NCBI RefSeq assembly: GCF_003018235.1
Contig: NZ_CP027437.1
DNA from: Escherichia coli
GTDB lineage: Bacteria; Pseudomonadota; Gammaproteobacteria; Enterobacterales; Enterobacteriaceae
Direction: 5' to 3' (one strand)
DNA: 64,000 nucleotides
The notes under the pieces are model-generated. The model worked only from the letters and a program-made list of their open reading frames with translations, was not told the DNA's origin and ran no database searches. The position numbers were made by a program, and so were the translations under genes. This document shows positions 1-35,135 of the stretch, in pieces. The first letter of the stretch is position 1. Every line of letters starts with the position of its first letter.

Positions 1-2
1 CT

Positions 3-65
3 GATAAGGCGCTGGAGTATCTGAAGCAGAACGGACTGATAAGCGTGGAGGATATTTTACGATGA
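3..65 (+). CDS. C-terminal end of an upstream prophage ORF (partial, ...DKALEYLKQNGLISVEDILR*)
   Basis: Frame open from window edge to TGA at 63-65; protein-like composition; identity unknown. Confidence 0.3.
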   Translation, partial: DKALEYLKQNGLISVEDILR

Positions 66-149
66 CCTGGCCTGAAGCATTCACCACGGCAGGAATTGCG
101 ATGGCGGTGGCACTGGTTGTGTATTCTATTTGTCGTTGGGGGTAAACAC

Positions 150-401
150 ATGTTCTCTCTGATTCAGCGTGGTCAGCGGTATGTTGATGCAGCTGGTTAT
201 CCTGTGGAGATTTGTTTTTGTTCTGCTGAGAAAGTGGTGTATCGCCGCCAGGACAATCAGACCCGTTCTGCAAGTATTGTTGACTTTAATCAGAATTTTG
301 AACGTCTGGATTATCACGAATATATACGGATTAAATCAGATATGGAGCAGACAGAACATCTGCGGAAATTAAGACGATTACACAAAAGAGGTGGGGAATA
401 A
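150..401 (+). CDS. hypothetical prophage protein (83 aa)
   Basis: ORF-track frame 96..401 (TTG); first ATG at 150; no recognisable motif. Confidence 0.35.
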   Translation: MFSLIQRGQRYVDAAGYPVEICFCSAEKVVYRRQDNQTRSASIVDFNQNFERLDYHEYIRIKSDMEQTEHLRKLRRLHKRGGE

Positions 402-864
402 CCACGGATAAAGAGAACTAAATTTCGTCAGAATTAACAGGAAATAACTGGAACGAAAAATACACCGCTTACGCGGCGGGGTTTCTGCAACCTTAAAACA
501 GGGTAAGAGAAATGGCAGAGATGATGAACAATAAACTCTTCATAACCAGTCTCTTTAAGTTGACTGGCCGGGAGTAACGACCAGTGGCAATACAAAAAAA
601 CCGCTTGCCAGCGTTTGTCTGGTCGGGTTACATTTCCCGTGCACCTCATAAAACGGGTGCCGGGATTCTCAACCCGCAGAAGAACAGAGCGCATAACCGC
701 GCCAGCGGTTTTTTTATGCGTGCCGTATCGTCACACCTTTTTCGCACACGAATTATGGCGGGGCGTACGGGGCCGACTTCGGTCGGGCCGGATCCTCTGT
801 TCTCCGGTGTTGAGAACCCCGTACGTCTCGCCACCCCGAGATTCTCAACTCTGGATGGTGAGTT

Positions 865-1125
865 ATGTCTATCACTGAACAGAGGTTACCCCTTATGGCA
901 AACCGTAAACAACAGCGCGCCCGCACTGAGCGTCGTCACATCCAGACCGAAATCAACCGCAGACTGTACCGGGCTATCACTGTCGCCAGAGTCATGTACT
1001 TCAATATGCTGTGTGATCAGGGATGCCAGATTGCACCTGATTACATTGCCTCCACGTTCAGTTACCTGGCAGACGATCTGCGGGATATGCAACGCCTGGT
1101 TAACGATCAGGCGCATAACCTGTAA
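865..1125 (+). CDS. hypothetical small basic protein upstream of replication gene
   Basis: ATG with GGTGAG RBS; Arg/Lys-rich N-terminus; 86 aa. Confidence 0.4.
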   Translation: MSITEQRLPLMANRKQQRARTERRHIQTEINRRLYRAITVARVMYFNMLCDQGCQIAPDYIASTFSYLADDLRDMQRLVNDQAHNL

Positions 1126-1203
1126 CGCACTTTTTCCTGAAATCATGAAACGGCACTCCGCTATCTGGCGGGGTGTCTGGCTGCCCGTTATCCGGGAGGA
1201 CAT

Positions 1204-3126
1204 ATGACCGTGTATTCAGCGGGAGGTCCGCGCATGCCTGAGCCGGAAGAAGAACAGGCATTCACTGAAGAGGTGAACAGCGCCTTTTCCGGGCTGCCTC
1301 GTTTTGTGTCTGTAAAGCTGGGGCGCAGGATCAGCAGCGCATGGCAGACAAAGGGTTTTGCCGGTGCACGGGAAAAATTTGCGCTGATGGTTCAGAAGGA
1401 TTTGCCGTTCATTACCGGGGTGAATAAACGTTATGCCATTAATCCGGATGAATTACCGGGGTGGCTGTTTGGTGGGCTGGCATCTGATCAGGCATACGGT
1501 GCGGTTCATTCCATGACCTGGCGATTTAATGCCATGGTGGATGGTGACGACGGGGATGCGCATTTACTGGCTCAGGATCTGTCCGTGTTTCTTATTGCTG
1601 AAATGCAGCACCTGAGTGTTCTTCTTGCGGATGAAGATGCGGATGCGGCGGCAGATGCCATTTATGCCATGGTTGCCGGGCTTGTTGAGCATTTCCGGAT
1701 GGAGCCACCGGACTGGAAGCGTTTTATTGGCAGAAAGCTGACACTGGAGCAACTGACTGTTGCCATCAGCCGGATGCTGAGTGTTCGCTGGTGGCAGGGA
1801 AAACTCAGGGCATTCTCCCGTCGCTGGCGTGAACATCTGCTTATAGCTATGGGTGTCGTTCGTCGGCAGTCTTCACCGCACTGCAGTTATGAATGGGTGC
1901 AGAGGTGGCTGGCGGGGCGTAAGCACGGTCGAAGGCTGATGGCGGAAACGGACGTTGAGGATGAAGAAACAGGAGAAAGATTTTCACTTCTCGATTTGGT
2001 TGACAGCAGCATTTCAGATGCGGAGAAACGCCGCGCAGAGCTGATGACCAGGGTTAAGGGGCTGGAAGATTTAGCCCGTTTTGAAGGTGTGGCGCAGGAG
2101 CAGGGGTATATCGGGCTTTTTTTCACGATGACCGCGCCATCAAAATATCATGCCTGGCTGGAGACAGGATATCGCAATCGTCGTTATAACGGCGCAAGCC
2201 CGAAAGACACACAAAATTATTTCTCCGGACTCTGGCGTCAGATCAGTGCAACGCTGAGGCGCAGGGGGATCGGGATTTTTGGATTAAGAAGTGCCGAACC
2301 GCATCATGACGGAACGCCGCACTGGCATGGTGTTCTCTATGTGCATCAGGAGCATGCTGCCGCCTTACAGGACATTCTTGAGTATTACGCCAACCGCGAT
2401 GATGACGCGGGAAAAACGCCCATCCGCAAAGCAGGAAGAAAATCCCACCTGGAAATAAAACCGGTTCTTGATGATCTGGGGAGTGCCTCTGCCTATATCG
2501 CCAAGCATATTGGAATGAATCTTGACGGTTGTGCGCCAGGCGGAATGAATCATGAAACGGGCCATACACTGGTGGTCACTGCCCGCCACGCCTCGGCGTG
2601 GGCGTCATTATGGGGGATCAAGCAGTTTCAGTTTATAGGCAGCACACCGGTAAGTGTATGGCGTGAGCTGCGTCGCTTTAACAATCAGGCTCATGCTGAC
2701 CGGATAAGCCCGGCGCTGGGTGAGTTACACCGTGCAGCCAGTGAGGGTGACTGGAAAACCTATACCAGGCTGCAGGGTGGACCGTTTGTGGCACGAAGAG
2801 ATCTGGTCCTTCGCACATGGTATCAGCGTTCGGAGGAGCCGGATGAGTGTGGGCTACACACCAGTGCGATCAAAGGTGTTTATATGCCGGGGCGTGATAC
2901 GCCACCGGTAGTGACGCGTTCACGTAACTGGAGGATCACCCGGAACGTTACAACAGGCGCTCTCAATGTTAACCGGGGGTCTGCTTTAACGCCCTGGACT
3001 TGTGTCAATAACTGCATTTCGGGCAGAAAACGACCAGATGGTCATCCTCCGGATCCAGGTATAAGGATCCCTGTTCAACTGGAACTGAACTTCGGGGAAG
3101 AGAATAAAGGGAAAAGTGAGCAGTAA
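1204..3126 (+). CDS. phage replication initiation endonuclease, HUH rolling-circle type (P2/186 gpA-like)
   Basis: 640-aa ORF with GGGAGGA RBS; HUH motif set FFTMTAP, PHWHGVLYV and YIAKHIG in canonical order. Confidence 0.7.
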   Translation: MTVYSAGGPRMPEPEEEQAFTEEVNSAFSGLPRFVSVKLGRRISSAWQTKGFAGAREKFALMVQKDLPFITGVNKRYAINPDELPGWLFGGLASDQAYGAVHSMTWRFNAMVDGDDGDAHLLAQDLSVFLIAEMQHLSVLLADEDADAAADAIYAMVAGLVEHFRMEPPDWKRFIGRKLTLEQLTVAISRMLSVRWWQGKLRAFSRRWREHLLIAMGVVRRQSSPHCSYEWVQRWLAGRKHGRRLMAETDVEDEETGERFSLLDLVDSSISDAEKRRAELMTRVKGLEDLARFEGVAQEQGYIGLFFTMTAPSKYHAWLETGYRNRRYNGASPKDTQNYFSGLWRQISATLRRRGIGIFGLRSAEPHHDGTPHWHGVLYVHQEHAAALQDILEYYANRDDDAGKTPIRKAGRKSHLEIKPVLDDLGSASAYIAKHIGMNLDGCAPGGMNHETGHTLVVTARHASAWASLWGIKQFQFIGSTPVSVWRELRRFNNQAHADRISPALGELHRAASEGDWKTYTRLQGGPFVARRDLVLRTWYQRSEEPDECGLHTSAIKGVYMPGRDTPPVVTRSRNWRITRNVTTGALNVNRGSALTPWTCVNNCISGRKRPDGHPPDPGIRIPVQLELNFGEENKGKSEQ

Positions 3127-3253
3127 ATTTTCCGGTTAAGTCAGCGGAAGAAACTGGACTTGTCCGGAGAATAAAAATACCGGTTTTACCTGGGCATGGT
3201 TTTATATACAGTGTCGCTGTATGGCGACAGTTAAGTGAAAAATGAGGTGGAAC

Positions 3254-3523
3254 ATGAGAGGACTGGAGCTTGAACGAATGACGCCGGAAAAAATGCATGC
3301 AATTGGTATGGAGTTCATCAGGAGATCTGAGGCCATGACGCAGGCGGGGATGACAAAAGACGCTGTCAGAAAAAATCTGCTTCCGGCGATACAGCGCCTG
3401 AACCGTGCAAAACATGAGCTTCAGATGGTGGTTGATCAGATGATCGATAAGGCAGCAGAGCTGGAAAAGTATAGCAGTGCGCTTGAAAAAATCATTCAGG
3501 ATATTGTGGGCACTGAGCAGTAA
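3254..3523 (+). CDS. hypothetical helical prophage protein (89 aa)
   Basis: ATG preceded by GAGGTGG RBS; first gene of a tightly spaced three-gene cassette. Confidence 0.4.
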   Translation: MRGLELERMTPEKMHAIGMEFIRRSEAMTQAGMTKDAVRKNLLPAIQRLNRAKHELQMVVDQMIDKAAELEKYSSALEKIIQDIVGTEQ

Positions 3524-3533
3524 GAGGTGGGGT

Positions 3534-4613
3534 ATGCAGGCGATCCTGACGGTATTCCCGCAGCGTAATGCCGGGATAACACTGATGAAAACAGGTAATC
3601 TGACAGCGCGGTTCAGGGACGGGCAGAGAATAATGATAAGGGATGTTCCGTCTGTGATGGCTGGGATGCCATCAGGAGAAATTCCGTCATCAGGACAGAG
3701 GCTGGCGGAAGAGGAAGGACTGACGGCTTTCTTTGCTGACGGAAGGGTAATAAAGCGTGCTGGTGGCAGTGATGCCATGGCGCGTTGGGTGAGCAGGATT
3801 GCAGGCTGCCAGTGTGAGAATGGTGATCACGTGGAGAACATGACAACAGCGCGGACAATGCAGGGAGAGGCGCTTCGGTTATGCCATGCCTGTGATAATC
3901 ATCATTATATGAAAGGATATCGGGCGCTGGCAGATGTGGCAGCCAGAAATCGTGCAGAATGGCTGATGGATTATATCAGGATGAGTCTGGGGCTGGGGGA
4001 AGATCATCAGGTGACCATTCCTGAGTTGTTTTGCTGGGCAGTGCTGAATGATGTGGCAGATGCTGTTCCGGTTATGATCGTAAGGCGTATCAGACAATTG
4101 CCGGAAGAGGAAAAGCTGAGCGGCACGATGAAAGAAGCAGATATTAATCCCTGGCAGACATCAGCAGGCACAGTGGTGAAGAAACTGGCAGATAATGCGA
4201 AGAGCGTTAATGTGTGCAATGTGCGGGTCAGACATGCAGTACGCCAGGAAGAACACAAAGAAATGGAAAAACCGGTGCTGAAACTTGTTGCAGACAGTGA
4301 TCCGGCTGCGGGCTATATGAGGAAGCCCAGAATGCAGCGGCTGTCTCTGCCGGGTTATACCTCGTGGGTGAAGCGTCAGCGATGCTGTGGATGCGGGAAA
4401 CCTGCAGATGATCCGCATCACATCACCGGGCACGGTTTTGGTGGTGCAGGGATAAAAGCCAGTGATTTGTTTGTGATCCCGCTGTGTCGGCAATGTCATC
4501 AGGAATTACACAATGACAGCAAGGCATGGGAGGAGAAAAACGGCAGTCAGTTGCTGTGGGTGATAAGGACGCTGGACAGGGCAGCGGGCATTGGCGCTTT
4601 AGTTGGGGGGTAA
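3534..4613 (+). CDS. Cys/His-rich prophage protein, resembles YdfU/DUF968 family (from memory)
   Basis: ATG with AGAGGTGGGG RBS; C-terminal CCGCGKPADDPHHITGHGFGG...IPLCRQCHQELHN zinc-binding-like cluster and internal CQCENGDH...CHACDNHHY cluster; size about 359 aa. Confidence 0.4.
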   Translation: MQAILTVFPQRNAGITLMKTGNLTARFRDGQRIMIRDVPSVMAGMPSGEIPSSGQRLAEEEGLTAFFADGRVIKRAGGSDAMARWVSRIAGCQCENGDHVENMTTARTMQGEALRLCHACDNHHYMKGYRALADVAARNRAEWLMDYIRMSLGLGEDHQVTIPELFCWAVLNDVADAVPVMIVRRIRQLPEEEKLSGTMKEADINPWQTSAGTVVKKLADNAKSVNVCNVRVRHAVRQEEHKEMEKPVLKLVADSDPAAGYMRKPRMQRLSLPGYTSWVKRQRCCGCGKPADDPHHITGHGFGGAGIKASDLFVIPLCRQCHQELHNDSKAWEEKNGSQLLWVIRTLDRAAGIGALVGG

Positions 4614-4614
4614 C

Positions 4615-5319
4615 ATGACACCGCAACAGATGGTATGGGCGAGAGAGCAGGTTATTTTTGCACTGAATCCACCGGATAAACGTCAGAAGGGGCAACTGGA
4701 GGCATTTGGTGATTTTGCCAGGTCAGACACCAGGCGTTACGGGAGGCAGAGAAACAGGACACTGAACATTGATGGCCGGTGGTATTGTCAGGATGGTGAT
4801 CCGGTACATGCTGCGGCAACAGCCTGTTATGCAATACAACCGGATATGATCACCAGGGAAGCGTTCAGAACGGCACAACTGAGGAGGAGGATTTATTGTC
4901 TGGAGGATTATCATCGGGCCTGGGTGTTATTCAGTTACAGCTTGCAGAAAAAACGAATACACCATCTTCTGGTCAGTGAGTACATCTGGATGAGGATGTT
5001 CGAGCGGTTGCAGGGGAAACGGGTTACGGACAGGATGACAGGAAATCTGATTGAAATAGCGAGGATGGCTGCATGGAATGCTGCAGTGACAGCCGGTGGG
5101 ATTGTTGCAGGTAAGGTTCTGATTGCTCCTTCATGTGCGGCGCAGATTGCAGGTGTAAAACCAAACACATGGAGTCAGCATTACAAGGCTCACTGGTGTT
5201 TTATGCATGAAGTATGCGATGAACTGGATCATGAGGCGCTGGTGACCATTACAGGAATAAAAAATCACCAAAAAAACGGCGAAAAATATAAATTTGCTAA
5301 AGTGAATATTTTAAGGTAG
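4615..5319 (+). CDS. hypothetical protein, candidate Q-type late antiterminator (by position and size only)
   Basis: Start 1 nt after upstream stop; 234 aa; followed immediately by promoter-like hexamers and a strong intrinsic terminator, as for Q/PR-prime/tR-prime. Confidence 0.3.
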   Translation: MTPQQMVWAREQVIFALNPPDKRQKGQLEAFGDFARSDTRRYGRQRNRTLNIDGRWYCQDGDPVHAAATACYAIQPDMITREAFRTAQLRRRIYCLEDYHRAWVLFSYSLQKKRIHHLLVSEYIWMRMFERLQGKRVTDRMTGNLIEIARMAAWNAAVTAGGIVAGKVLIAPSCAAQIAGVKPNTWSQHYKAHWCFMHEVCDELDHEALVTITGIKNHQKNGEKYKFAKVNILR

Positions 5320-5322
5320 ATT
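5294..5322 (+). promoter_or_regulatory. candidate sigma70 promoter (possible PR-prime analogue): TTGCTA, 17-nt spacer, TAGATT
   Basis: Hexamers read directly at 5294-5299 and 5317-5322, at the 3-prime end of the candidate Q gene. Confidence 0.25.
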
Positions 5323-5363
5323 TGAGGCAAATTTGATAGTCTGCCGTATTTGTAAGCAGAGCA

Positions 5364-5390
5364 TAAACCCGCATATTGCGGGTTTTTTTA
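5364..5390 (+). terminator. intrinsic terminator (AACCCGCA-TATT-TGCGGGTT plus T7)
   Basis: Perfect GC-rich hairpin followed by TTTTTTT. Confidence 0.65.
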
Positions 5391-5513
5391 TGCCCGAAAT
5401 TTTCCCTCAGCGCAATAAATACGCTGGTGGTTGTGAGTACCGGTCTTTCAGCTTGCTGGCTTTTTCGACAAGAGTTATTGGTATGCCACGTTAACCGGAC
5501 AGGGGGAAAAGAC

Positions 5514-5711
5514 ATGCTGAAACAGCAGGATATGACAGAAACCGCCAGGGTGGTGTTTAATGAATTAAGCATTACCGAACCGGCGACCGTCGGGGAAATA
5601 GCGCAGAATACCTGCCTTTCACGTGAACGCTGCCAGTTAATACTGACTCAGCTTGTTATGGCGGGTCTGGCTGACTATCAGTTCGGTTGTTACAGACGCC
5701 TTCAGCAATGA
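5514..5711 (+). CDS. small winged-helix-like DNA-binding protein (65 aa)
   Basis: ATG with AGGGGGAAAAG RBS; helix-turn-helix-like segment VGEIAQNTCLSRERCQLILTQLVMAGL. Confidence 0.45.
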   Translation: MLKQQDMTETARVVFNELSITEPATVGEIAQNTCLSRERCQLILTQLVMAGLADYQFGCYRRLQQ

Positions 5712-5862
5712 AGGCATTCTTTTATTGTGAAGATGGGCGACTGGTTAGGTGTTACAGCACCCAACCAGTCATTCGCTCATGCTTGAAGGTCACAAGCGAA
5801 CCCAGGCCCACCGCTTTTGCACAAAAGCCCGGAGAGCCTACCGGAGATGAGTTTGTTGATCT

Positions 5863-6930
5863 ATGACGCATGTTGTAAAAATATCAGAAAGTGAACTGGT
5901 CAATGCTGACTGCCTGGAATTTATACACACGTTGCCAGATGACAGTATTGACCTGATCGTTACCGATCCACCGTACTTTAAAGTGAAACCCAATGGCTGG
6001 GATAACCAGTGGAAGGGTGATGAAGATTACCTGAAGTGGCTGGATCAGTGTCTTGCGCAGTTCTGGCGGGTGCTGAAACCTGCCGGAAGTCTTTACCTGT
6101 TCTGTGGCCATCGCCTGGCATCTGACATCGAAATCATGATGCGTGAACGCTTTAATGTGCTGAACCATATTATCTGGGCGAAGCCGTCCGGACGCTGGAA
6201 CGGATGCAACAAGGAAAGCCTGAGGGCGTATTTCCCGGCCACAGAGCGCATTCTGTTCGCGGAACACTATCTGGAGCCGTATCGCCCGAAAGATGATGGT
6301 TATGAGGCGAAGGGCAGGGCACTGAAACAGCATGTGATGGCACCGCTGATTTCTTACTTTCGTGATGCGCGTGCCGCCCTTGGGATAACGGCAAAACAGA
6401 TTGCTGATGTCACAGGAAAGAAAAACATGGTGTCGCACTGGTTCAGTGCCAGTCAGTGGCAGCTGCCGAACGAAAGCGATTATCTGAAATTACAGGCGCT
6501 GTTTGCCCGGGTGGCAGAAGAGAAGCATCAGCGCGGAGAACTGGAAAAGCCACACCACCAGCTGGTGGTAACGTATACCTCACTGAACCGGCAGTATGCG
6601 GAGTTGCTGAGTGAATACAAAAATCTGCGCCGGTATTTTGGCGTGACGGCGCGGGTCCCGTACACCGATGTGTGGACGCACAAGCCGGTCCAGTTTTACC
6701 CGGGTAAACACCCCTGTGAAAAACCGGCGGAGATGCTGCGGCAGATAATTTGTGCGAGCAGCCGTCCTGGTGACATGGTGGCGGATTTCTTTATGGGGTC
6801 GGGCTCAACCATAAAAGCCGCTATGGCGCTGGGGCGTCGTGCAATTGGTGTTGAACTGGAAGAGGAACGTTTTGCGCAGACCGTGAAAGAGATTAGTCAT
6901 ATCCTGACAGGCTCAATTGATGACGGATAA
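5863..6930 (+). CDS. orphan DNA amino-methyltransferase (N6-adenine/N4-cytosine, beta-class motif order)
   Basis: TDPPYF (motif IV) near N-terminus and FFMGSGST (motif I) near C-terminus; no adjacent restriction endonuclease. Confidence 0.8.
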   Translation: MTHVVKISESELVNADCLEFIHTLPDDSIDLIVTDPPYFKVKPNGWDNQWKGDEDYLKWLDQCLAQFWRVLKPAGSLYLFCGHRLASDIEIMMRERFNVLNHIIWAKPSGRWNGCNKESLRAYFPATERILFAEHYLEPYRPKDDGYEAKGRALKQHVMAPLISYFRDARAALGITAKQIADVTGKKNMVSHWFSASQWQLPNESDYLKLQALFARVAEEKHQRGELEKPHHQLVVTYTSLNRQYAELLSEYKNLRRYFGVTARVPYTDVWTHKPVQFYPGKHPCEKPAEMLRQIICASSRPGDMVADFFMGSGSTIKAAMALGRRAIGVELEEERFAQTVKEISHILTGSIDDG

Positions 6931-7380
6931 GGATGGATAAAGACATGGTCAGTTCAGGATGCGAAGCAAGTAAACAGATAAGGCTATAAAAAAAACTGAC
7001 AGTAGAAAAATAGCTTTTTCCCAGGTATTCATGAACACAATCTCTTAAAAGCGCCCGCTGATACCAGCGGGCAATACATACTGGCATTGATGTTAAGTTT
7101 ACAGGTTTCATTTATCGTATCGTGCGACACGACGTTGTTATGTTAATAAGTGTGATTTTTGATGTGAAATGTTTGTTGCGTGTTTTTTGATGGGTTTCTC
7201 ATTTTTCAGGCATCATCTCGTCACTGATGTGCAGCACAGCGATGAGGTGCTACTACTTCCACGGAGCGGATTTTGTCTTTTTTGTGGGTGGTAAAAATCT
7301 CCTTATAGCAGGATGTGATAATTATTTATCAGTATAATCTTATGAGATTGACGCGATTTCTCCGGATTTGTTAGAAGATC

Positions 7381-7420
7381 ATGCATGGTGAATCCACCTC
7401 AGCGGTGGGTCATAATGACC
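7381..7420 (+). repeat. about 40-bp conserved motif, copy 1 (GCATGGTGAATCC-hairpin-CATAATGAC)
   Basis: 33 of 40 identical to copy 2 at 7940-7979. Confidence 0.5.
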
Positions 7421-7456
7421 GCCTGTTCGCCGGTTCAATCCCTGCGGGGGCCACCA
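7404..7456 (+). pseudogene. degenerate tRNA: ileX/ileZ-like 3-prime half (CAT anticodon, T-arm, GGGGGCC-A-CCA) lacking a pairing 5-prime acceptor strand
   Basis: 3-prime half aligns closely to E. coli ileX recalled from memory; no 5-prime sequence can pair with the acceptor 3-prime strand. Confidence 0.4.
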
Positions 7457-7457
7457 T

Positions 7458-7534
7458 GCGCCGTTAGCTCAGCTGGACAGAGCAATTGCCTTCTAAGCAA
7501 TCGGTCACTGGTTCGAATCCAGTATGGCGCACCA
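7458..7534 (+). tRNA. tRNA-Arg (anticodon TCT, reads AGA)
   Basis: Cloverleaf folded by hand: 7-bp acceptor stem, perfect 5-bp anticodon stem ATTGC/GCAAT, loop CTTCTAA, T-loop TTCGAAT, encoded CCA. Confidence 0.85.
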
Positions 7535-7535
7535 T

Positions 7536-7610
7536 GCGGTCATCGTATAATGGCTATTACCTCGGCCTTCCAGGCTGATGATGCGGGTTCGATTCCAGCT
7601 GGCCGCTCCA
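7536..7610 (+). tRNA. tRNA-Gly (anticodon TCC), glyT-like with one T-stem mismatch
   Basis: 75 nt, near-identical to E. coli glyT recalled from memory; anticodon loop CTTCCAG; acceptor stem with one G-U; T-stem GCGGG/CCAGC has a G-A mismatch. Confidence 0.7.
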
Positions 7611-7630
7611 TAGAGGATTATGGGGACTGT

Positions 7631-7768
7631 ATGTTGAGTATTTTTCTGCGTTACCTTTCATCGGTAAAAATAAACACACAACAACTATTTATGCTGGCAT
7701 TAGCAATGATAGTTATTGGTTTTCTCGGAACTTGTTTATTTATTTACTATATTTTTGTCGATAATTAA
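7631..7768 (+). CDS. small hydrophobic peptide ORF (45 aa, MLSIFLRYLSSVKINTQQLFMLALAMIVIGFLGTCLFIYYIFVDN)
   Basis: ATG ORF in AT-rich spacer after tRNAs; one predicted TM helix; weak RBS. Confidence 0.25.
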   Translation: MLSIFLRYLSSVKINTQQLFMLALAMIVIGFLGTCLFIYYIFVDN

Positions 7769-7939
7769 TATTTTTAGTATTTAGCCAGAGTGGCCCAAAC
7801 AGAAAATAAAGTTACTGTGAAACAGGGGGGCCTAATAAAAATAATCACCACTAAATTCGGGGCTTTAAAAATGCTAAGAACATCACATTTCATTATGCCG
7901 GGTACTGGAGAATAACATGATGTTTTGTTAAAAATGATT

Positions 7940-7979
7940 TTGCATGGTGAATCCCCCTGTGCGGCGGGGCATAATGACA
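7940..7979 (+). repeat. about 40-bp conserved motif, copy 2
   Basis: See copy 1; a partial inverted copy (GGTCATTGCAG...CACCATGCAG) lies at about 8021-8064. Confidence 0.5.
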
Positions 7980-8321
7980 GATGTTTGGTTGCGTATTGTA
8001 TAGGCAAGTTGCGGATTCTGTCTGGTCATTGCAGAATTCACCGGGAGGCACCCGGCACCATGCAGATAATTGTTTTGTGGATGATAATACCAGCCCCTCT
8101 CCGGAGGGGCTTTCTTATGGGCGAAAAAAAGCCCGGGGAGCCGGGCAATAGCATGAGATATACGTTTTTATAGACGTACAGATTTTAATCAGAATTTATG
8201 GGGCTGCGCAACTGCGTGGCCTTTTTTGTTTTGTGGGCTAAGGTTTTCCCCTTTGATTCGCCATGTGGCTGAACCTGTAGCCCGCCACTGTTCAGACGCA
8301 ATCCCGGCAAGGGGAGGAATA

Positions 8322-10349
8322 ATGGCATTTAAACACTACGATCTGGTCTCTGCCAGCAGCGGTGATGAACTGCAAAAGAAACTGACAGAAAAAATAAATG
8401 AAGGGTGGCAGCCATACGGTTCGCCGCTTGTTTCGTATGACGATAACGGGATGAAAATTATTCAGGCCATTGCAGCAGAGGGTGATGTCAGGATCCCGGT
8501 TGAAACGCCTGATGATGGTGGTGATTCACCGGTCACAATGACCTCCGGTGCACCTGATTATTATTATGTTGTTGTGCTTGCCGGACAGTCCAACGGCATG
8601 GCCTACGGTGAGGGGCTTCCGTTACCGGACTCTTATGACCGCCCGGACCCGCGCATTAAACAGCTGGCACGCCGCAGTACAGTGACGCCGGGTGGGGACG
8701 CCTGTGCATACAATGATGTGATTCCGGCTGACCATTGTCTGCATGATGTACAGGATATGAGCGGTGTTAATCATCCGAAAGCGGACCTGAATAAGGGGCA
8801 GTATGGCTGTGTCAGTCAGGGGCTGCATATTGCCAAAAAACTGCTGTCGTATATCCCGCAGAATGCAGGGATACTTCTGGTGCCCTGCTGCCGTGGTGGT
8901 TCTGCATTCACCACCGGGGCTGACGGCACATTCAGTGAGGTCACCGGCGCATCCGCTGACGCTGCACGCTGGGGTGCCGGTAAACCCCTGTATCAGGACA
9001 TGGTCAGCCGGACAAAAGCGGCGCTGGCCAAGAACCCGAAAAACAGGCTGCTGGCGGTGGTATGGATGCAGGGCGAGGCAGACCTTGCGTCAGGCAGTCA
9101 GCAGCATAACGGGTTATTCACGGCCATGGTTCAGCAGTTCCGGACTGACCTGTCCTCACTTGCTGCGCAGTGCGTGAGTGGCAATGCTGCCACGGTGCCG
9201 TGGATTTGTGGTGATACCACGTATTACTGGAAGGCCACTTATGGCACACAGTATGAAGCCATTTATGGAGCCTATAAGAATCTGTCCGCACAGAATATTT
9301 TCTTTGTACCGTTCCTGACAGATGAAAACGGCGCAAACACGCCAACGAACCAGCCAGCGGAAGACCCGGATATTGTGGCTGTGGGGTATTACGGTGCGGC
9401 ATCACGAACACAGGCGAACTGGACGACAGCGCAACGTGACAGCCATTTCAGCACCTGGGCGCGTCGCGGCATCATTTCTGACCGCCTTGCGTCAGCTATT
9501 CTGGTGCACGCGGGACGTACGTCAGGTTTCATTACCGGTGAAGTTTCTTCTCCGGACACTGCATCCGGTGACGGTGGTTCGTCCACTGATGCGGGTACGG
9601 ATGCGGGGACCGGCACTTCCGGAACAGGAAGTGATGACGCTACCGGAACGACACCAGCCACCGCTGCCATTATTCTGAGTGCAGACGGAGGGGATGTTTC
9701 GGCACAGGGCTGGACGGTGGAAGGCACCACGGTGACCACCACGGCAAACACGGTGACTTCATCGGGTGAGGCGCTGGCGCAGAATGTGCTGAGTGTTCCG
9801 AAACAGAGCGGGGCAGCATGGAAGCTTGTTCATACCACCACAGATGAGCCAGCGGAACTGCTGAACAATGGCGGTGAGTTCCTGTGTCGTTTCCGTATCA
9901 CGGATACTGCCATTGCTGAGGGGCGTTATGCCTTTGGTCTTTACTGGCTTCCGGACGCACAGAAGATACCAGCCGGTGCGACATTCAATAAAACAGGAAG
10001 CGGGATGTCCCCGTCCATGCTCAACTTCTATGTCCAGACGGATGGCAGCAACATAAACCTGTTATCACACTGCAGTACGAAGAGTGCAGGGAATCTGAAG
10101 ATTGGCTCATTCGGTGCATTTAACAATGAATGGCATACCTTCCGTCTTCGCTACCATGGTGGCAATACGGCAAGAGCAACGGTGACGCTGGACAGTCAGG
10201 TGGTGGGAGATATAACGCTGTTATGTGCGCCGTCAGCGGCCAGTGCCGGTGACACTCTGTCGATGATAAGTATCACATCGGGTGATACATACAGTATTGA
10301 AGTGGAAAGCCTGAGTGTGACGGTGAACGGGGCTGCGGCAGCGGCGTGA
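8322..10349 (+). CDS. prophage sialate O-acetylesterase-like protein (NanS-p-like) with long C-terminal Thr/Gly-rich domain
   Basis: GGGGAGGAATA RBS then ATG; SASA-type catalytic motif VLAGQSNGMAYGEG; N-terminal region resembling DUF1737; position equivalent to the esterase gene downstream of stx in Stx phages. Confidence 0.6.
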   Translation: MAFKHYDLVSASSGDELQKKLTEKINEGWQPYGSPLVSYDDNGMKIIQAIAAEGDVRIPVETPDDGGDSPVTMTSGAPDYYYVVVLAGQSNGMAYGEGLPLPDSYDRPDPRIKQLARRSTVTPGGDACAYNDVIPADHCLHDVQDMSGVNHPKADLNKGQYGCVSQGLHIAKKLLSYIPQNAGILLVPCCRGGSAFTTGADGTFSEVTGASADAARWGAGKPLYQDMVSRTKAALAKNPKNRLLAVVWMQGEADLASGSQQHNGLFTAMVQQFRTDLSSLAAQCVSGNAATVPWICGDTTYYWKATYGTQYEAIYGAYKNLSAQNIFFVPFLTDENGANTPTNQPAEDPDIVAVGYYGAASRTQANWTTAQRDSHFSTWARRGIISDRLASAILVHAGRTSGFITGEVSSPDTASGDGGSSTDAGTDAGTGTSGTGSDDATGTTPATAAIILSADGGDVSAQGWTVEGTTVTTTANTVTSSGEALAQNVLSVPKQSGAAWKLVHTTTDEPAELLNNGGEFLCRFRITDTAIAEGRYAFGLYWLPDAQKIPAGATFNKTGSGMSPSMLNFYVQTDGSNINLLSHCSTKSAGNLKIGSFGAFNNEWHTFRLRYHGGNTARATVTLDSQVVGDITLLCAPSAASAGDTLSMISITSGDTYSIEVESLSVTVNGAAAAA

Positions 10350-32665: not shown

Positions 32666-33859
32666 ATGCCAGTACAGATTTCAGGTGTGCTGAAGGATGG
32701 TACAGGAAAACCGGTACCGGAGTGCACCATAGAGCTGAAAGCCGTGAGAACCAGTGAGACGGTGGTGGTCACCACGGTGGCGGAGTGTCAGCCGGGGGAA
32801 ACAGGCAGTTACAGCATGCAGGTTGAGCCGGGGCGTTATCGTGTGACCCTGTGCGTGGAAGGTCGCCAGCCAGCATATGCCGGAGAGATTGATGTCATGG
32901 CAGACGACAAACCGGGTACCCTGAATGCCTTTCTGCTCCGTGAAACGGATGCTGCGTATTACCCTGATGCACTGAAGAAACTGGAAGCGGCGGCGGATGA
33001 GGCTGTGCGCAGGGCGCGGGAAGCTGCTGAGAAAGCGGAAACTGCCGTGGGGCCACAGGGGCCAAAGGGAGATAAAGGCGAGAAGGGGGAGCAGGGGCCA
33101 AAGGGTGATAAGGGAGACACCGGTGCACAGGGGCCGAAGGGAGAAACCGGCGCTAAGGGTGACAAAGGTGATACAGGCCCCGCAGGTCCGAAAGGTGAGC
33201 GGGGCGACCCTGGCGGCCCACAGGGGCCAAAAGGGGATACGGGAGCCGCAGGTCCGGCAGGCCCACAGGGGCCGAAAGGGGATACCGGAGCCACAGGCCC
33301 GGCAGGCCCACAGGGACCAAAAGGAGATACCGGAGCCGCAGGTCCGGCAGGCCCACAGGGACCGAAAGGAGATACAGGAGCCACCGGTCCGGCAGGCCCA
33401 CAGGGACCGAAAGGAGATACGGGGGCCGCAGGCCCGGCAGGCCCACCGGGACCGAAAGGAGATACCGGAGCCACTGGTCCGGCAGGCCCACTGGGACCGA
33501 AAGGGGATACGGGAGCCACCGGTCCGGCAGGTCCGCAGGGGCCGAAAGGCGATACCGGAGCCACCGGTCCGGCAGGTCCGCAGGGTCCGGCGGGAAGTTC
33601 TGACAGCGGGTTGTTTGGCGTCGGTTCTTTTGTTCTTGCAGCGTATTACCCGACGAGTTACTCGGGGGACATGCCACCGGGCACAACTGTTGCCGGGTCA
33701 TCACTGTCTGCATGCTGCCTTTCGAATGGTACTCCCCTGATTGCGTCCGGTAATGTGGGGGAAACCCGTTTACCGGGGACGTGGCGTGCATGTGGTCCGT
33801 TAATATGGACATCTGCTGCGGGTATCAGACAGGCAGGATTATTTCAGCGCATATCATGA
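32666..33859 (+). CDS. side tail fibre protein (Stf-like) with collagen-like Gly-X-Y repeats
   Basis: N-terminus [17 protein letters not shown] matches lambda Stf N-terminus; about 160 aa of GPKGDTGA-type triplets. Confidence 0.75.
33040..33600 (+). repeat. tandem 45-bp (15-aa [15 protein letters not shown]) collagen-like repeats inside stf
   Basis: Repeated nucleotide unit read directly; generates spurious ORFs on both strands. Confidence 0.7.
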
Positions 33860-34475: not shown

Positions 34476-35135
34476 ATAAAAAAAGCGGGGCCACCCCCGG
34501 GCCCCGACATAACGAAGTATCAGATGTTTATAATTATTAGCTTACTAACTGTGCCATATCAGAATACTGCAGGAAGTGATGTTGTTATCATTTTTGCAAG
34601 CAGGGCGTTTCTGGAGGGAATCGATTGGTGATGGAGTGTGCAATGATGAAGGGAATAAGCCTCTGCAAAACAAAAAAAGACTTTAACAAAATCAAGCTCG
34701 CTTAGTGGCGCATCTGCCCGTATCCGCACCAGTCGTCCGGAAAATGATTCAAACACCGGGCGGCAAAAGTATTACCAGTGTAGCAACCTGGAATGCGGCG
34801 TATGCTTCTCAACTCTGGCAGCTTTCCATAAATTCACATCGAAACACGCTTCCGGCGTTCACTCTTCAGAAGGTATCCCGTGGCATGAACTGCCAGCTTC
34901 ACACTGGTGAAACAATCAGATGACTTTTCCTTTACCTCAAATTAACAGGCAGAATTGCCGGAGTAACAAAAAAACGATAGATTACGCGCGGGTGCCTTTC
35001 GGCTGATGGTCGGAGGGAATACCCGAAGGCCAGATGTGGAAAGGCCCCGGAAAACACTTTTGTTTAACCGAGGCCCTAACCGTCTACCCTAAGCAAGTGA
35101 TAGGTTAGCGCCTCCCCGAAAAAGGAGCAAGCGCT

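What the first reader, a model, noticed from the sequence alone, without database searches (positions are those of the whole stretch)
1204..3126. P2/186-type HUH rolling-circle replication protein in an otherwise lambda-like prophage
The replication gene carries HUH motifs (FFTMTAP, HWH, YxxK) typical of gpA-type nickases rather than lambda O/P-type initiators, while the tail module is almost lambda-identical. This mosaic implies a different replication mode from the lambda paradigm.
Basis: partly seen in the sequence, partly recalled or inferred. Interest (0 to 1): 0.35.

Follow-up and report, generated by a model that had tools for sequence, protein, structure and literature searches.

The report
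One-tyrosine P2-type replicase in chimeric prophage
The gene is a genuine P2-type nicking replication initiator with its origin inside its own coding sequence, but it belongs to an undescribed lineage that has lost one of the family's two catalytic tyrosines and always sits in P2/lambda chimeric prophages.

Summary
ORF 1204-3126 (+, 640 aa) matches Pfam Phage_GPA (E 5.5e-77) and PHROG 91, and it carries FFTMTAP, HHDGTPHWH and Y431-IAK.

A P2/186-type origin lies inside its 3' end. GTCAATAACTG is identical in P2, 186 and every relative, at the position of their annotated nick sites, and synonymous sites are frozen there.

- **The prophage is not "otherwise lambda-like".** Its integrase, C-type repressor and Cox are P2-like, with a truncated ogr relic at the right end. 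A P1/P4-type isrK/C4 RNA switch sits just upstream of the gene. Only Q, lysis, head and tail are lambdoid, and the tail is 70-81% identical to lambda in DNA.
- **The protein is not ordinary P2/186 type.** It is 32-37% identical to them and belongs to a monophyletic clade of about 640 aa in E. coli, Salmonella and Yersinia.
- **The second catalytic tyrosine is gone.** It is invariant in 151/151 other family sequences (149 diverse representatives plus P2 and 186) but is His here, with Asn or Tyr in rare clade members.

All 11 clade loci carry gpA-small ORF-DUF968-Q, while the nearest Y..Y relatives sit in canonical P2 prophages. dN/dS is 0.08. No deposited phage genome carries the clade.

I judge it a new variant of a known kind. 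Whether one tyrosine changes the replication product is untested.

The parts
641..715 (+). isrK-like RNA element that contains the upstream pair of C4 target sites (666-673 TTCTCAAC, 681-689 AGAACAGAG)
   Evidence: Rfam RF01394 scores 65.4 bits against a gathering score of 50. The target sites are complementary to unpaired parts of the C4 RNA. A terminator-like hairpin lies at 695-710.
751..838 (+). C4-type antisense RNA (P1 c4 / P4 CI family)
   Evidence: Rfam RF01695 scores 77 bits against a gathering score of 45. The predicted fold is -49.8 kcal/mol and leaves 795-803 and 809-816 unpaired. An RNA of the same family lies 350-450 nt upstream of gpA in L005, L007, L011 and L013.
842..885 (+). 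Downstream pair of C4 target sites (842-849 and 877-885) bracketing the ATG at 865
   Evidence: Exact 8- and 9-nt complementarity to the same two C4 loops. This is the arrangement known for P1 c4/icd (my own knowledge).
865..1125 (+). Small ORF (86 aa) resembling P4 epsilon-type 'derepression' proteins
   Evidence: PGAP names the orthologue 'derepression protein'. The Pfam Derepression PF25738 match is E 6e-4, below the curated cut-off. Conserved upstream of gpA in 9 clade loci.
1204..3126 (+). gpA-family HUH replication endonuclease, 640 aa, of the one-tyrosine clade
2119..2139 (+). Motif 1, FFTMTAP (aa 306-312)
2302..2328 (+). HUH metal-binding motif HHDGTPHWH (aa 367-375)
   Evidence: It is the most conserved DNA and protein block of the gene.
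2494..2508 (+). Catalytic helix motif Y431-I-A-K-H435, where His replaces the second catalytic Tyr
   Evidence: Both residues lie in predicted helix 428-439.
2983..3015 (+). Predicted origin of rolling-circle replication, GCTTTAACGCCCT|GGACTTGTGTCAATAACTGC, with the nick predicted at about 2995/2996
   Evidence: Homologous to the annotated nick sites of P2 (29892) and 186 (28576). The block is nearly invariant in 14 loci. Third-codon positions are 6/10 invariant against a mean of 0.33. The motif occurs once in the window.
3281..3523 (+). Conserved small ORF (80 aa) between gpA and DUF968
   Evidence: PHROG 2565, function unknown. A homologue (46-92% identity) is detected in 7 of the 9 clade loci compared, but not in the two Yersinia loci. 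A called ORF of 77-102 aa occupies this position in all 11 clade loci.
3537..4613 (+). DUF968 / HNH-like protein (YdfU-like, from the lambdoid nin region)
   Evidence: Pfam DUF968 E 5.6e-57. PHROG 96. The same gene precedes Q in Stx2_95.
4633..5319 (+). Q-type late antiterminator
   Evidence: Pfam Phage_antiter_Q E 2.3e-27.
5365..5385 (+). Strong intrinsic terminator downstream of Q (tR'-like)
   Evidence: 9-bp stem followed by a T run.
34722..34910 (+). ogr/Delta-like zinc-finger relic that lacks the first CxxC pair and a canonical start codon

Best explanation
The gene encodes the prophage's replication initiator, a P2 gpA-family HUH nickase. After derepression it is expected to nick the + strand at an origin inside its own 3' end, at about 2995/2996 within GCTTTAACGCCCT|GGACTTGTGTCAATAACTGC. 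It would bind the 5' end covalently through Tyr431 and let host enzymes copy the circle by the rolling-circle mode. It represents a distinct, selectively maintained lineage. The second catalytic tyrosine (P2 Tyr454) is replaced by His435, two other invariant residues (R415, K438) are changed, and the long C-terminal extension is absent. This lineage is inherited as a cassette: isrK/C4 RNA, derepression ORF, gpA, small ORF, DUF968, Q. The cassette joins a P2-type lysogeny arm to lambdoid late genes. Family membership, motifs, origin conservation, clade-specific substitutions, synteny and purifying selection are shown here. The nicking chemistry, the strand nicked, control by the C4 RNA, and any consequence of having one tyrosine are inferred.
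For: - **Origin.** GTCAATAACTG and the GGA just upstream are identical in P2, 186, the window and all relatives, at the position of the annotated P2 and 186 nick sites. Synonymous sites are frozen there. The encoded peptide lies in a tail predicted to be disordered, residues 583-640 with pLDDT below 50, which points to a constraint on the DNA rather than the protein.
- **One tyrosine.** All clade clusters read YI[AT]K[H/N], apart from one Yersinia sequence with Y. Outside the clade, 151/151 sequences (149 diverse 50%-identity representatives plus P2 and 186) read Y..Y. R415 and K438 are 46/46 invariant outside the clade and changed inside it.
- **Clade structure.** The clade is monophyletic, with His at its base.
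- **Selection.** dN/dS is 0.08 against a 93%-identical relative.
- **Synteny.** 11/11 clade loci have gpA-small ORF-DUF968-Q, while 3/3 nearest outgroup loci lack that cassette, and the two with gene calls (L017, L018) are canonical P2 prophages.
- **No competitor.** No other initiator, helicase or loader is present in the prophage.
Against: There is no biochemical or genetic evidence for this protein or any member of its clade, and no virion or induced phage carrying it was found. All six IMG/VR loci have identifiers that look like isolate-genome predictions, which is my reading of the ids and was not checked. In the near-identical SCU-111 copy, some prophage genes (J, recE, ea22-like) are annotated as pseudogenes, so this particular copy may not produce phage. 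A family-defining residue, the second Tyr, is missing, so the classical two-tyrosine cycle cannot operate as described for phiX174 and P2. The strand and exact nick position rest only on homology to the P2 and 186 annotations.
Confidence: 0.8

Rival explanations
1. The mechanism is unchanged from P2. The Tyr-to-His change is functionally silent because a second protomer of an oligomer supplies the second nucleophile, so unit-length circles are made exactly as in P2.
For: Everything else in the catalytic core is conserved. One clade member in Yersinia still has Tyr at this position within the same architecture. From my own knowledge, many one-tyrosine HUH Reps still complete rolling-circle rounds.
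Against: The tyrosine is invariant in 151/151 sequences outside the clade, yet it is His, Asn or Tyr inside it. R415 and K438, both invariant outside, change along with it. That pattern is a shift in constraint at the active site, not neutral drift at a single residue.
Confidence: 0.35
2. The gene is a decaying relic of a P2-like prophage that was overwritten by lambdoid DNA, and it no longer functions in replication.
For: An ogr relic and several pseudogenes are present in the element.
Against: The ORF is intact with a good ribosome-binding site. dN/dS is 0.08-0.15. About 100 clusters at 90% identity, some with over 1000 member sequences, keep the full length and the motifs. The origin DNA is conserved.
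Confidence: 0.05
3. It is a non-replicative HUH enzyme, either a conjugative relaxase or a transposase.
Against: Profile searches place it only in Phage_GPA / PHROG 91. The other hits are a weak Rep hit and a chance TetR_C hit, and there is no relaxase or transposase family. Its context is an early phage operon with no transfer genes or terminal repeats. No GpA-family structure is solved, so only distant HUH folds are available for comparison.
Confidence: 0.02

Closest known systems
Bacteriophage 186 A protein and P2 gpA (Pfam PF05840, superfamily I rolling-circle initiators)
   Same: The same family by profile. It shares motif 1, the HUH motif, the first catalytic Tyr followed by xxK, and an origin inside the 3' part of its own gene with the identical GTCAATAACTG core. 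Like them, it sits downstream of an int-C-cox type lysogeny arm.
   Different: Identity is only 37% (186) and 32% (P2). The second catalytic Tyr is His, and R415 and K438 are changed. The protein is 640 aa against 694 and 761, and it ends 36 residues after the origin. No P2 B homologue is present. It is followed by DUF968-Q and lambdoid late genes rather than P2 late genes.
Long-tailed lambdoid Stx phages (Stx2_95, 1720a-02, VT1-Sakai, phiP27)
   Same: The same Q-proximal region (TrmB-like gene, DNA methylase, tRNAs, STnc100), plus lysis, terminase, portal, ClpP/capsid fusion and lambda-like tail, at 87-88% DNA identity over most of the late region.
   Different: Those phages have lambda-type int/xis, CI/Cro, and O plus helicase or DnaC-type replication genes. 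This prophage has none of these and carries no stx.
P1 immI (c4-icd-ant) and the P4 CI RNA-epsilon-alpha operon
   Same: A C4-family RNA has two loops complementary to paired target sites both upstream and at the start of the next ORF. That ORF is epsilon-like, and the replication gene follows it.
   Different: The downstream replication gene is a gpA nickase rather than the P4 alpha primase-helicase. The epsilon-like assignment is weak, below the Pfam cut-off. Regulation has not been tested.
One-tyrosine rolling-circle initiators such as pC194 RepA (Tyr plus an acidic residue)
   Same: A single nucleophilic Tyr, with a non-nucleophilic polar residue one helical turn away. The comparison with pC194 is from my own knowledge.
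   Different: A different Rep family, a His rather than a Glu, and on the opposite side of the Tyr. No evidence shows that His435 activates water.

Membership tests
Phage_GPA / P2 gpA-type rolling-circle initiators | Significant match to the family profile over the catalytic region | tested here: met
   PF05840 E 5.5e-77, covering profile positions 12-320 of 321. PHROG 91 E 1.8e-173.
Phage_GPA / P2 gpA-type rolling-circle initiators | Motif 1 (FxTLTxP) and the HUH metal-binding motif | tested here: met
   FFTMTAP at aa 306-312 and HHDGTPHWH at aa 367-375, aligned with P2 and 186.
Phage_GPA / P2 gpA-type rolling-circle initiators | Two catalytic tyrosines spaced YxxxY (P2 Y450/Y454) | tested here: not met
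   The window has Y431...H435. Outside the clade, 151/151 sequences have Y..Y.
Phage_GPA / P2 gpA-type rolling-circle initiators | Origin and nick site inside the gene's own 3' coding region | tested here: met
   Met at sequence level only. The DNA block is conserved at the position of the annotated P2 and 186 nick sites, with frozen synonymous sites.
Phage_GPA / P2 gpA-type rolling-circle initiators | Site-specific single-strand cleavage with a covalent 5'-phosphotyrosine link, acting in cis | not testable with these tools
   Needs biochemistry and genetics.
HUH endonuclease superfamily | HUH fold | tested here: met
P2-like phages (Peduoviridae) | P2-type lysogeny and regulatory arm (int, C, cox) | tested here: met
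   In the near-identical SCU-111 prophage, Int is 45% and C is 31% identical to P2, and Pfam Phage_Cox matches at E 1.2e-6. This arm lies just outside the window.
P2-like phages (Peduoviridae) | P2-type late genes (Q, P, O, N, M, L and a contractile tail) under Ogr control | tested here: not met
   The late genes are lambdoid, with a lambda-type terminase, portal_2, ClpP/MCP fusion and lambda tail. The ogr gene is a truncated relic.
Lambdoid phages | Q antiterminator with a downstream terminator, followed by lysis and lambda-like morphogenesis genes | tested here: met
Lambdoid phages | CI/Cro-type switch and O/P-type (or helicase-type) theta replication module | tested here: not met
   None was found in the annotation or in PHROG scans of the early region. 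Relatives that share the late region do have them.
C4 / CI antisense RNA immunity (P1 immI, P4) | C4-family RNA plus complementary a/b target pairs flanking it | tested here: met
   RF01695 scores 77 bits. Two loops are complementary to 666-673/681-689 and to 842-849/877-885.

The most novel reading that the evidence does not exclude
Loss of the second tyrosine is an adaptation to the lambdoid late module. Without the second nucleophile the nickase cannot cut and reseal at each passage of the origin. The rolling circle would then run on and yield concatemers, which is the substrate that lambda-type terminases need. Two-tyrosine P2 gpA instead yields the monomeric circles that P2 terminase packages. 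If this is right, one active-site residue would set the form of the replication product and would have had to change for a P2 replication module to drive a lambda packaging module.
Probability: 0.2. Interest if true: 0.7.

Novelty: new variant of a known kind. Interest (0 to 1): 0.5.

Why it matters
It extends the known repertoire of replication modules attached to lambdoid late regions. It also shows that a whole P2 lysogeny and replication arm, together with a P1/P4-type RNA switch, can be fused to Q-controlled lambda morphogenesis.

The lineage is common in Salmonella and present in E. coli and Yersinia, yet no deposited phage genome carries it.

The clade also offers a natural experiment on a long-standing question in rolling-circle replication: what the second tyrosine of superfamily I initiators is for, and how replication products are matched to the packaging machinery. 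A few point mutants and an analysis of replication intermediates would test this directly.

Tried and rejected
- **NCBIfam scan.** No family matched.
- **PDB sequence search.** The only hits were spurious DARPin/ankyrin matches to residues 380-426, so no GpA-family structure is solved.
- **Hairpins and iterons around the origin (2800-3300).** Only short repeats that look like chance were found. The promoter scan found no more sites than shuffled sequence.
- **att core repeats.** I compared the pheA-side end in SCU-111 with the window's right end and found no exact repeat of 12 nt or more in the ranges tried. The prophage ends are therefore not defined.
- **P2 B, orf80-83, orf91 and 186 cII, orf81, orf84, Tum, orf97.** None has a homologue in the prophage.
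- **Literature.** I could not retrieve Odegrip & Haggard-Ljungquist 2001, Liu & Haggard-Ljungquist 1994, Odegrip 2000 or the Christie & Calendar P2 review. Searches for P2 'monomeric circles' found nothing. Searches for a described P2-early/lambda-late hybrid found only the inverse mosaic (PMC3448106) and surveys of lambdoid replication modules that do not mention gpA (PMC12315714).
- **Strict link between the substitution and the hybrid architecture.** I rejected the idea that Tyr-to-His is strictly required for the hybrid architecture, because the Yersinia member keeps Tyr within a Q/HK97-type context.

Full report
**1. The observation**

The ORF is real and sits exactly where stated: 1204-3126 on the + strand, 640 aa, with an ATG preceded by GGAGG.
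- It matches Pfam Phage_GPA (PF05840) at E 5.5e-77 over nearly the whole profile, and PHROG 91 'nicking at origin of replication' at E 1.8e-173.
- The only other Pfam hits are a weak Rep-family hit and a chance TetR_C hit.
- The motifs lie at aa 306-312 (FFTMTAP), aa 367-375 (HHDGTPHWH) and aa 431-434 (YIAK).
- No GpA-family structure is solved.

**2. The origin**

The P2 and 186 GenBank records annotate the nick site inside gene A.
- In a protein-guided alignment, that position corresponds to window position about 2996.
- The 11-mer GTCAATAACTG and the GGA just upstream are identical in P2, 186, the window and all 11 further relatives' loci examined, although the proteins are only 32-60% identical.
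- Within the clade, a 33-nt block at 2983-3015 (GCTTTAACGCCCTGGACTTGTGTCAATAACTGC) is nearly invariant, while its flanks diverge.
- Across ten genes, 6 of 10 third-codon positions are invariant at codons 594-607, against a gene-wide mean of 0.33.
- The peptide encoded there lies in the tail that is predicted to be disordered, residues 583-640.
- The constraint is therefore on the DNA. This is the expected signature of a cis-acting origin, and the exact motif occurs only once in the 64-kb window.
- The nick position and the strand are inferred from homology alone.

**3.

P2 and 186 read G-Y-[IV]-A-K-Y, whereas the window reads A-Y-I-A-K-H.
- The change is not private to this sequence. Roughly 100 clusters at 90% identity from E. 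coli, Salmonella and Yersinia, 629-655 aa long for the full-length clusters, read YI[AT]KH. Two have Asn and one Yersinia cluster has Tyr.
- In an exhaustive HMMER search of 1.84 billion 50%-identity representatives, the whole clade collapses to one representative (942 bits). The next hit drops to 481 bits.
- All 149 other representatives listed, together with P2 and 186, have Y..Y, which is 151 of 151.
- Of the ten positions that are at least 90% conserved outside the clade but differ inside it, three are 46/46 invariant outside: R415, Y435 and K438. All three lie on or next to the catalytic helix.
- No new conserved tyrosine appears nearby.
- A neighbour-joining tree makes the clade monophyletic, with a His-bearing sequence at its base and the Yersinia Tyr nested inside. 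This suggests Tyr changed to His on the stem and later reverted. Only a distance tree supports this.
- dN/dS against a 93%-identical relative is 0.08, so the gene is under strong purifying selection.
- The clade also lacks the C-terminal extension of about 50-200 residues present in P2, 186 and the nearest relatives.

**4. Genomic context**

The window matches the E. coli SCU-111 chromosome at 99.5% identity over bases 1-5400 and 98.65% over bases 1-6881, and diverges more in later segments. Only 6 of 5,426 complete E. coli genomes carry the 5.4-kb module. In SCU-111 the prophage lies between pheA and raiA.

Its gene order is as follows.
- A P2-like integrase (45% identical to P2 Int), a C-like repressor (31% identical to P2 C) and a Cox-family gene.
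- Recombination and accessory genes.
- The isrK/C4 RNA, the derepression-like ORF, gpA, a small ORF and DUF968.
- Q, followed by a TrmB-like gene, a DNA methylase, tRNAs and STnc100.
- Lysis genes, a lambda-type terminase, a portal, a ClpP/capsid fusion, a lambda-like tail and tail fibres.
- An ogr/Delta-like gene and hok.

The ogr-like ORF in the window (34722-34910) lacks the first CxxC pair and a canonical start codon, so it is a relic. Together with the P2-type left arm, this suggests a P2-like ancestor whose late region was replaced by lambdoid DNA. That history is inference.

No O/P, DnaC, helicase or P2 B homologue is present. Lambdoid Stx phages that share the late region at 87-88% identity use CI/Cro together with O/helicase or DnaC-type modules. 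The tail is 70-81% identical to lambda in DNA.

**5. The cassette is the unit of inheritance**

- All 11 clade loci examined carry gpA-small ORF-DUF968-Q. They come from Salmonella, Yersinia, E. coli, IMG/VR and a Logan contig holding the most divergent member.
- Nine of the 11 also carry the derepression-like ORF. In the four of these scanned with Rfam, a C4 RNA and an isrK element lie just upstream of gpA.
- The three nearest outgroup loci lack the cassette. The two with gene calls encode 41-46%-identical, 813-844 aa, Y..Y proteins and are canonical P2-type prophages with P2 portal, terminase, scaffold and capsid genes.
- No record among the 50,697 deposited phage genomes encodes a protein more than 37.5% identical.

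**6. Regulation (noticed, then partly followed up)**

The C4-family RNA at 751-838 folds into a long hairpin that leaves two unpaired stretches. These stretches are exactly complementary to 666-673/681-689 upstream and to 842-849/877-885, which bracket the ATG at 865.

From my own knowledge, this is the P1 c4 a1b1/a2b2 layout. The order RNA, epsilon-like ORF, replication gene also mirrors the P4 CI-epsilon-alpha operon. I infer that gpA expression is gated by this RNA, but this is untested.

**7. Mechanism**

- **Shown:** family membership, catalytic motifs, the origin DNA, and selection.
- **Inferred from the family:** Tyr431 attacks the origin on the + strand, a 5'-phosphotyrosyl intermediate forms, and host helicase and polymerase drive rolling-circle synthesis.
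- **Open:** how a round is terminated with only one tyrosine.

From memory and not verified here, the two tyrosines of phiX174 gpA alternate to cut and reseal at each passage of the origin. P2 makes monomeric double-stranded circles, which its terminase packages. One-tyrosine Reps such as pC194 RepA use an acidic residue to terminate by hydrolysis.

Lambda-type packaging needs concatemers (PMC12315714). The most interesting reading is therefore that the one-tyrosine enzyme makes concatemers suited to the lambdoid terminase.

The Yersinia member argues against a strict requirement, because it keeps Tyr in a Q/HK97-type context. I give this reading about 0.2.

**8. Verdict**

I file it as a new variant of a known kind. 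It works like a P2/186 A protein but fails one defining feature of that family, the second catalytic tyrosine.

The literature I could search describes the inverse mosaic, P2 late genes with lambda-type regulatory genes (PMC3448106).

Noticed in passing
window 641-885: A complete P1-type c4 layout lies immediately upstream of the replication gene. It consists of an isrK-like element holding target sites a1/b1, a C4 RNA, and target sites a2/b2 bracketing the start of an epsilon-like 'derepression' ORF. About 1,640 of 5,426 complete E. coli genomes hold DNA roughly 86% identical to 592-1016.
   Followed up: partly
window 34722-34910: An ogr/Delta-like ORF at the right end of the prophage lacks the first CxxC zinc ligands and a canonical start codon. 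It is probably a fossil of a P2-like ancestor. A hok/gef gene and a TM2-domain gene follow it before raiA.
   Followed up: partly
window 7355-8230: The position where Stx phages carry stx holds two tRNAs (7458-7531, 7536-7607), an STnc100 sRNA (7912-8122, 145.6 bits), and sub-threshold AsxR/AgvB-like matches on the minus strand (8124-8179). No toxin genes are present. The window diverges from SCU-111 here: no alignment over 6882-7922, and 80% identity over 7923-9490.
   Followed up: no
window 32666-33859: A tail-fibre gene contains a long collagen-like (GPxGxKGDTGA) repeat array. Its length differs from the SCU-111 copy, which gives an offset of about 360 nt.
   Followed up: no
L001 12999-13358 and window 865-1125; L005, L011 and L013 each have two C4 RNAs: The prophage and its Salmonella relatives carry two copies of the C4 RNA/Ash-type module. 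One lies near Cox and the other just before gpA.
   Followed up: no
window 3537-4613: The DUF968 protein has an HNH-like C-terminal region (PHROG 96 'HNH endonuclease', Pfam HNHc_6 weak). It is invariably placed between gpA and Q in the clade, and its role is unknown.
   Followed up: no
L001 14844-16298, L001 17685-18095, L002 5807-8797: In the SCU-111 copy, recE, an ea22-like gene and the tail-tip gene J are annotated as pseudogenes, so that copy may be defective. The window copy was not checked gene by gene.
   Followed up: no
window aa 382-426 of the gpA protein (nt about 2347-2481): The insert between the HUH strand and the catalytic helix gives spurious phmmer hits to designed ankyrin repeats (E down to 5e-11). 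This is a compositional or consensus-like artefact. Residues 402-411 are low-confidence in the model.
   Followed up: no
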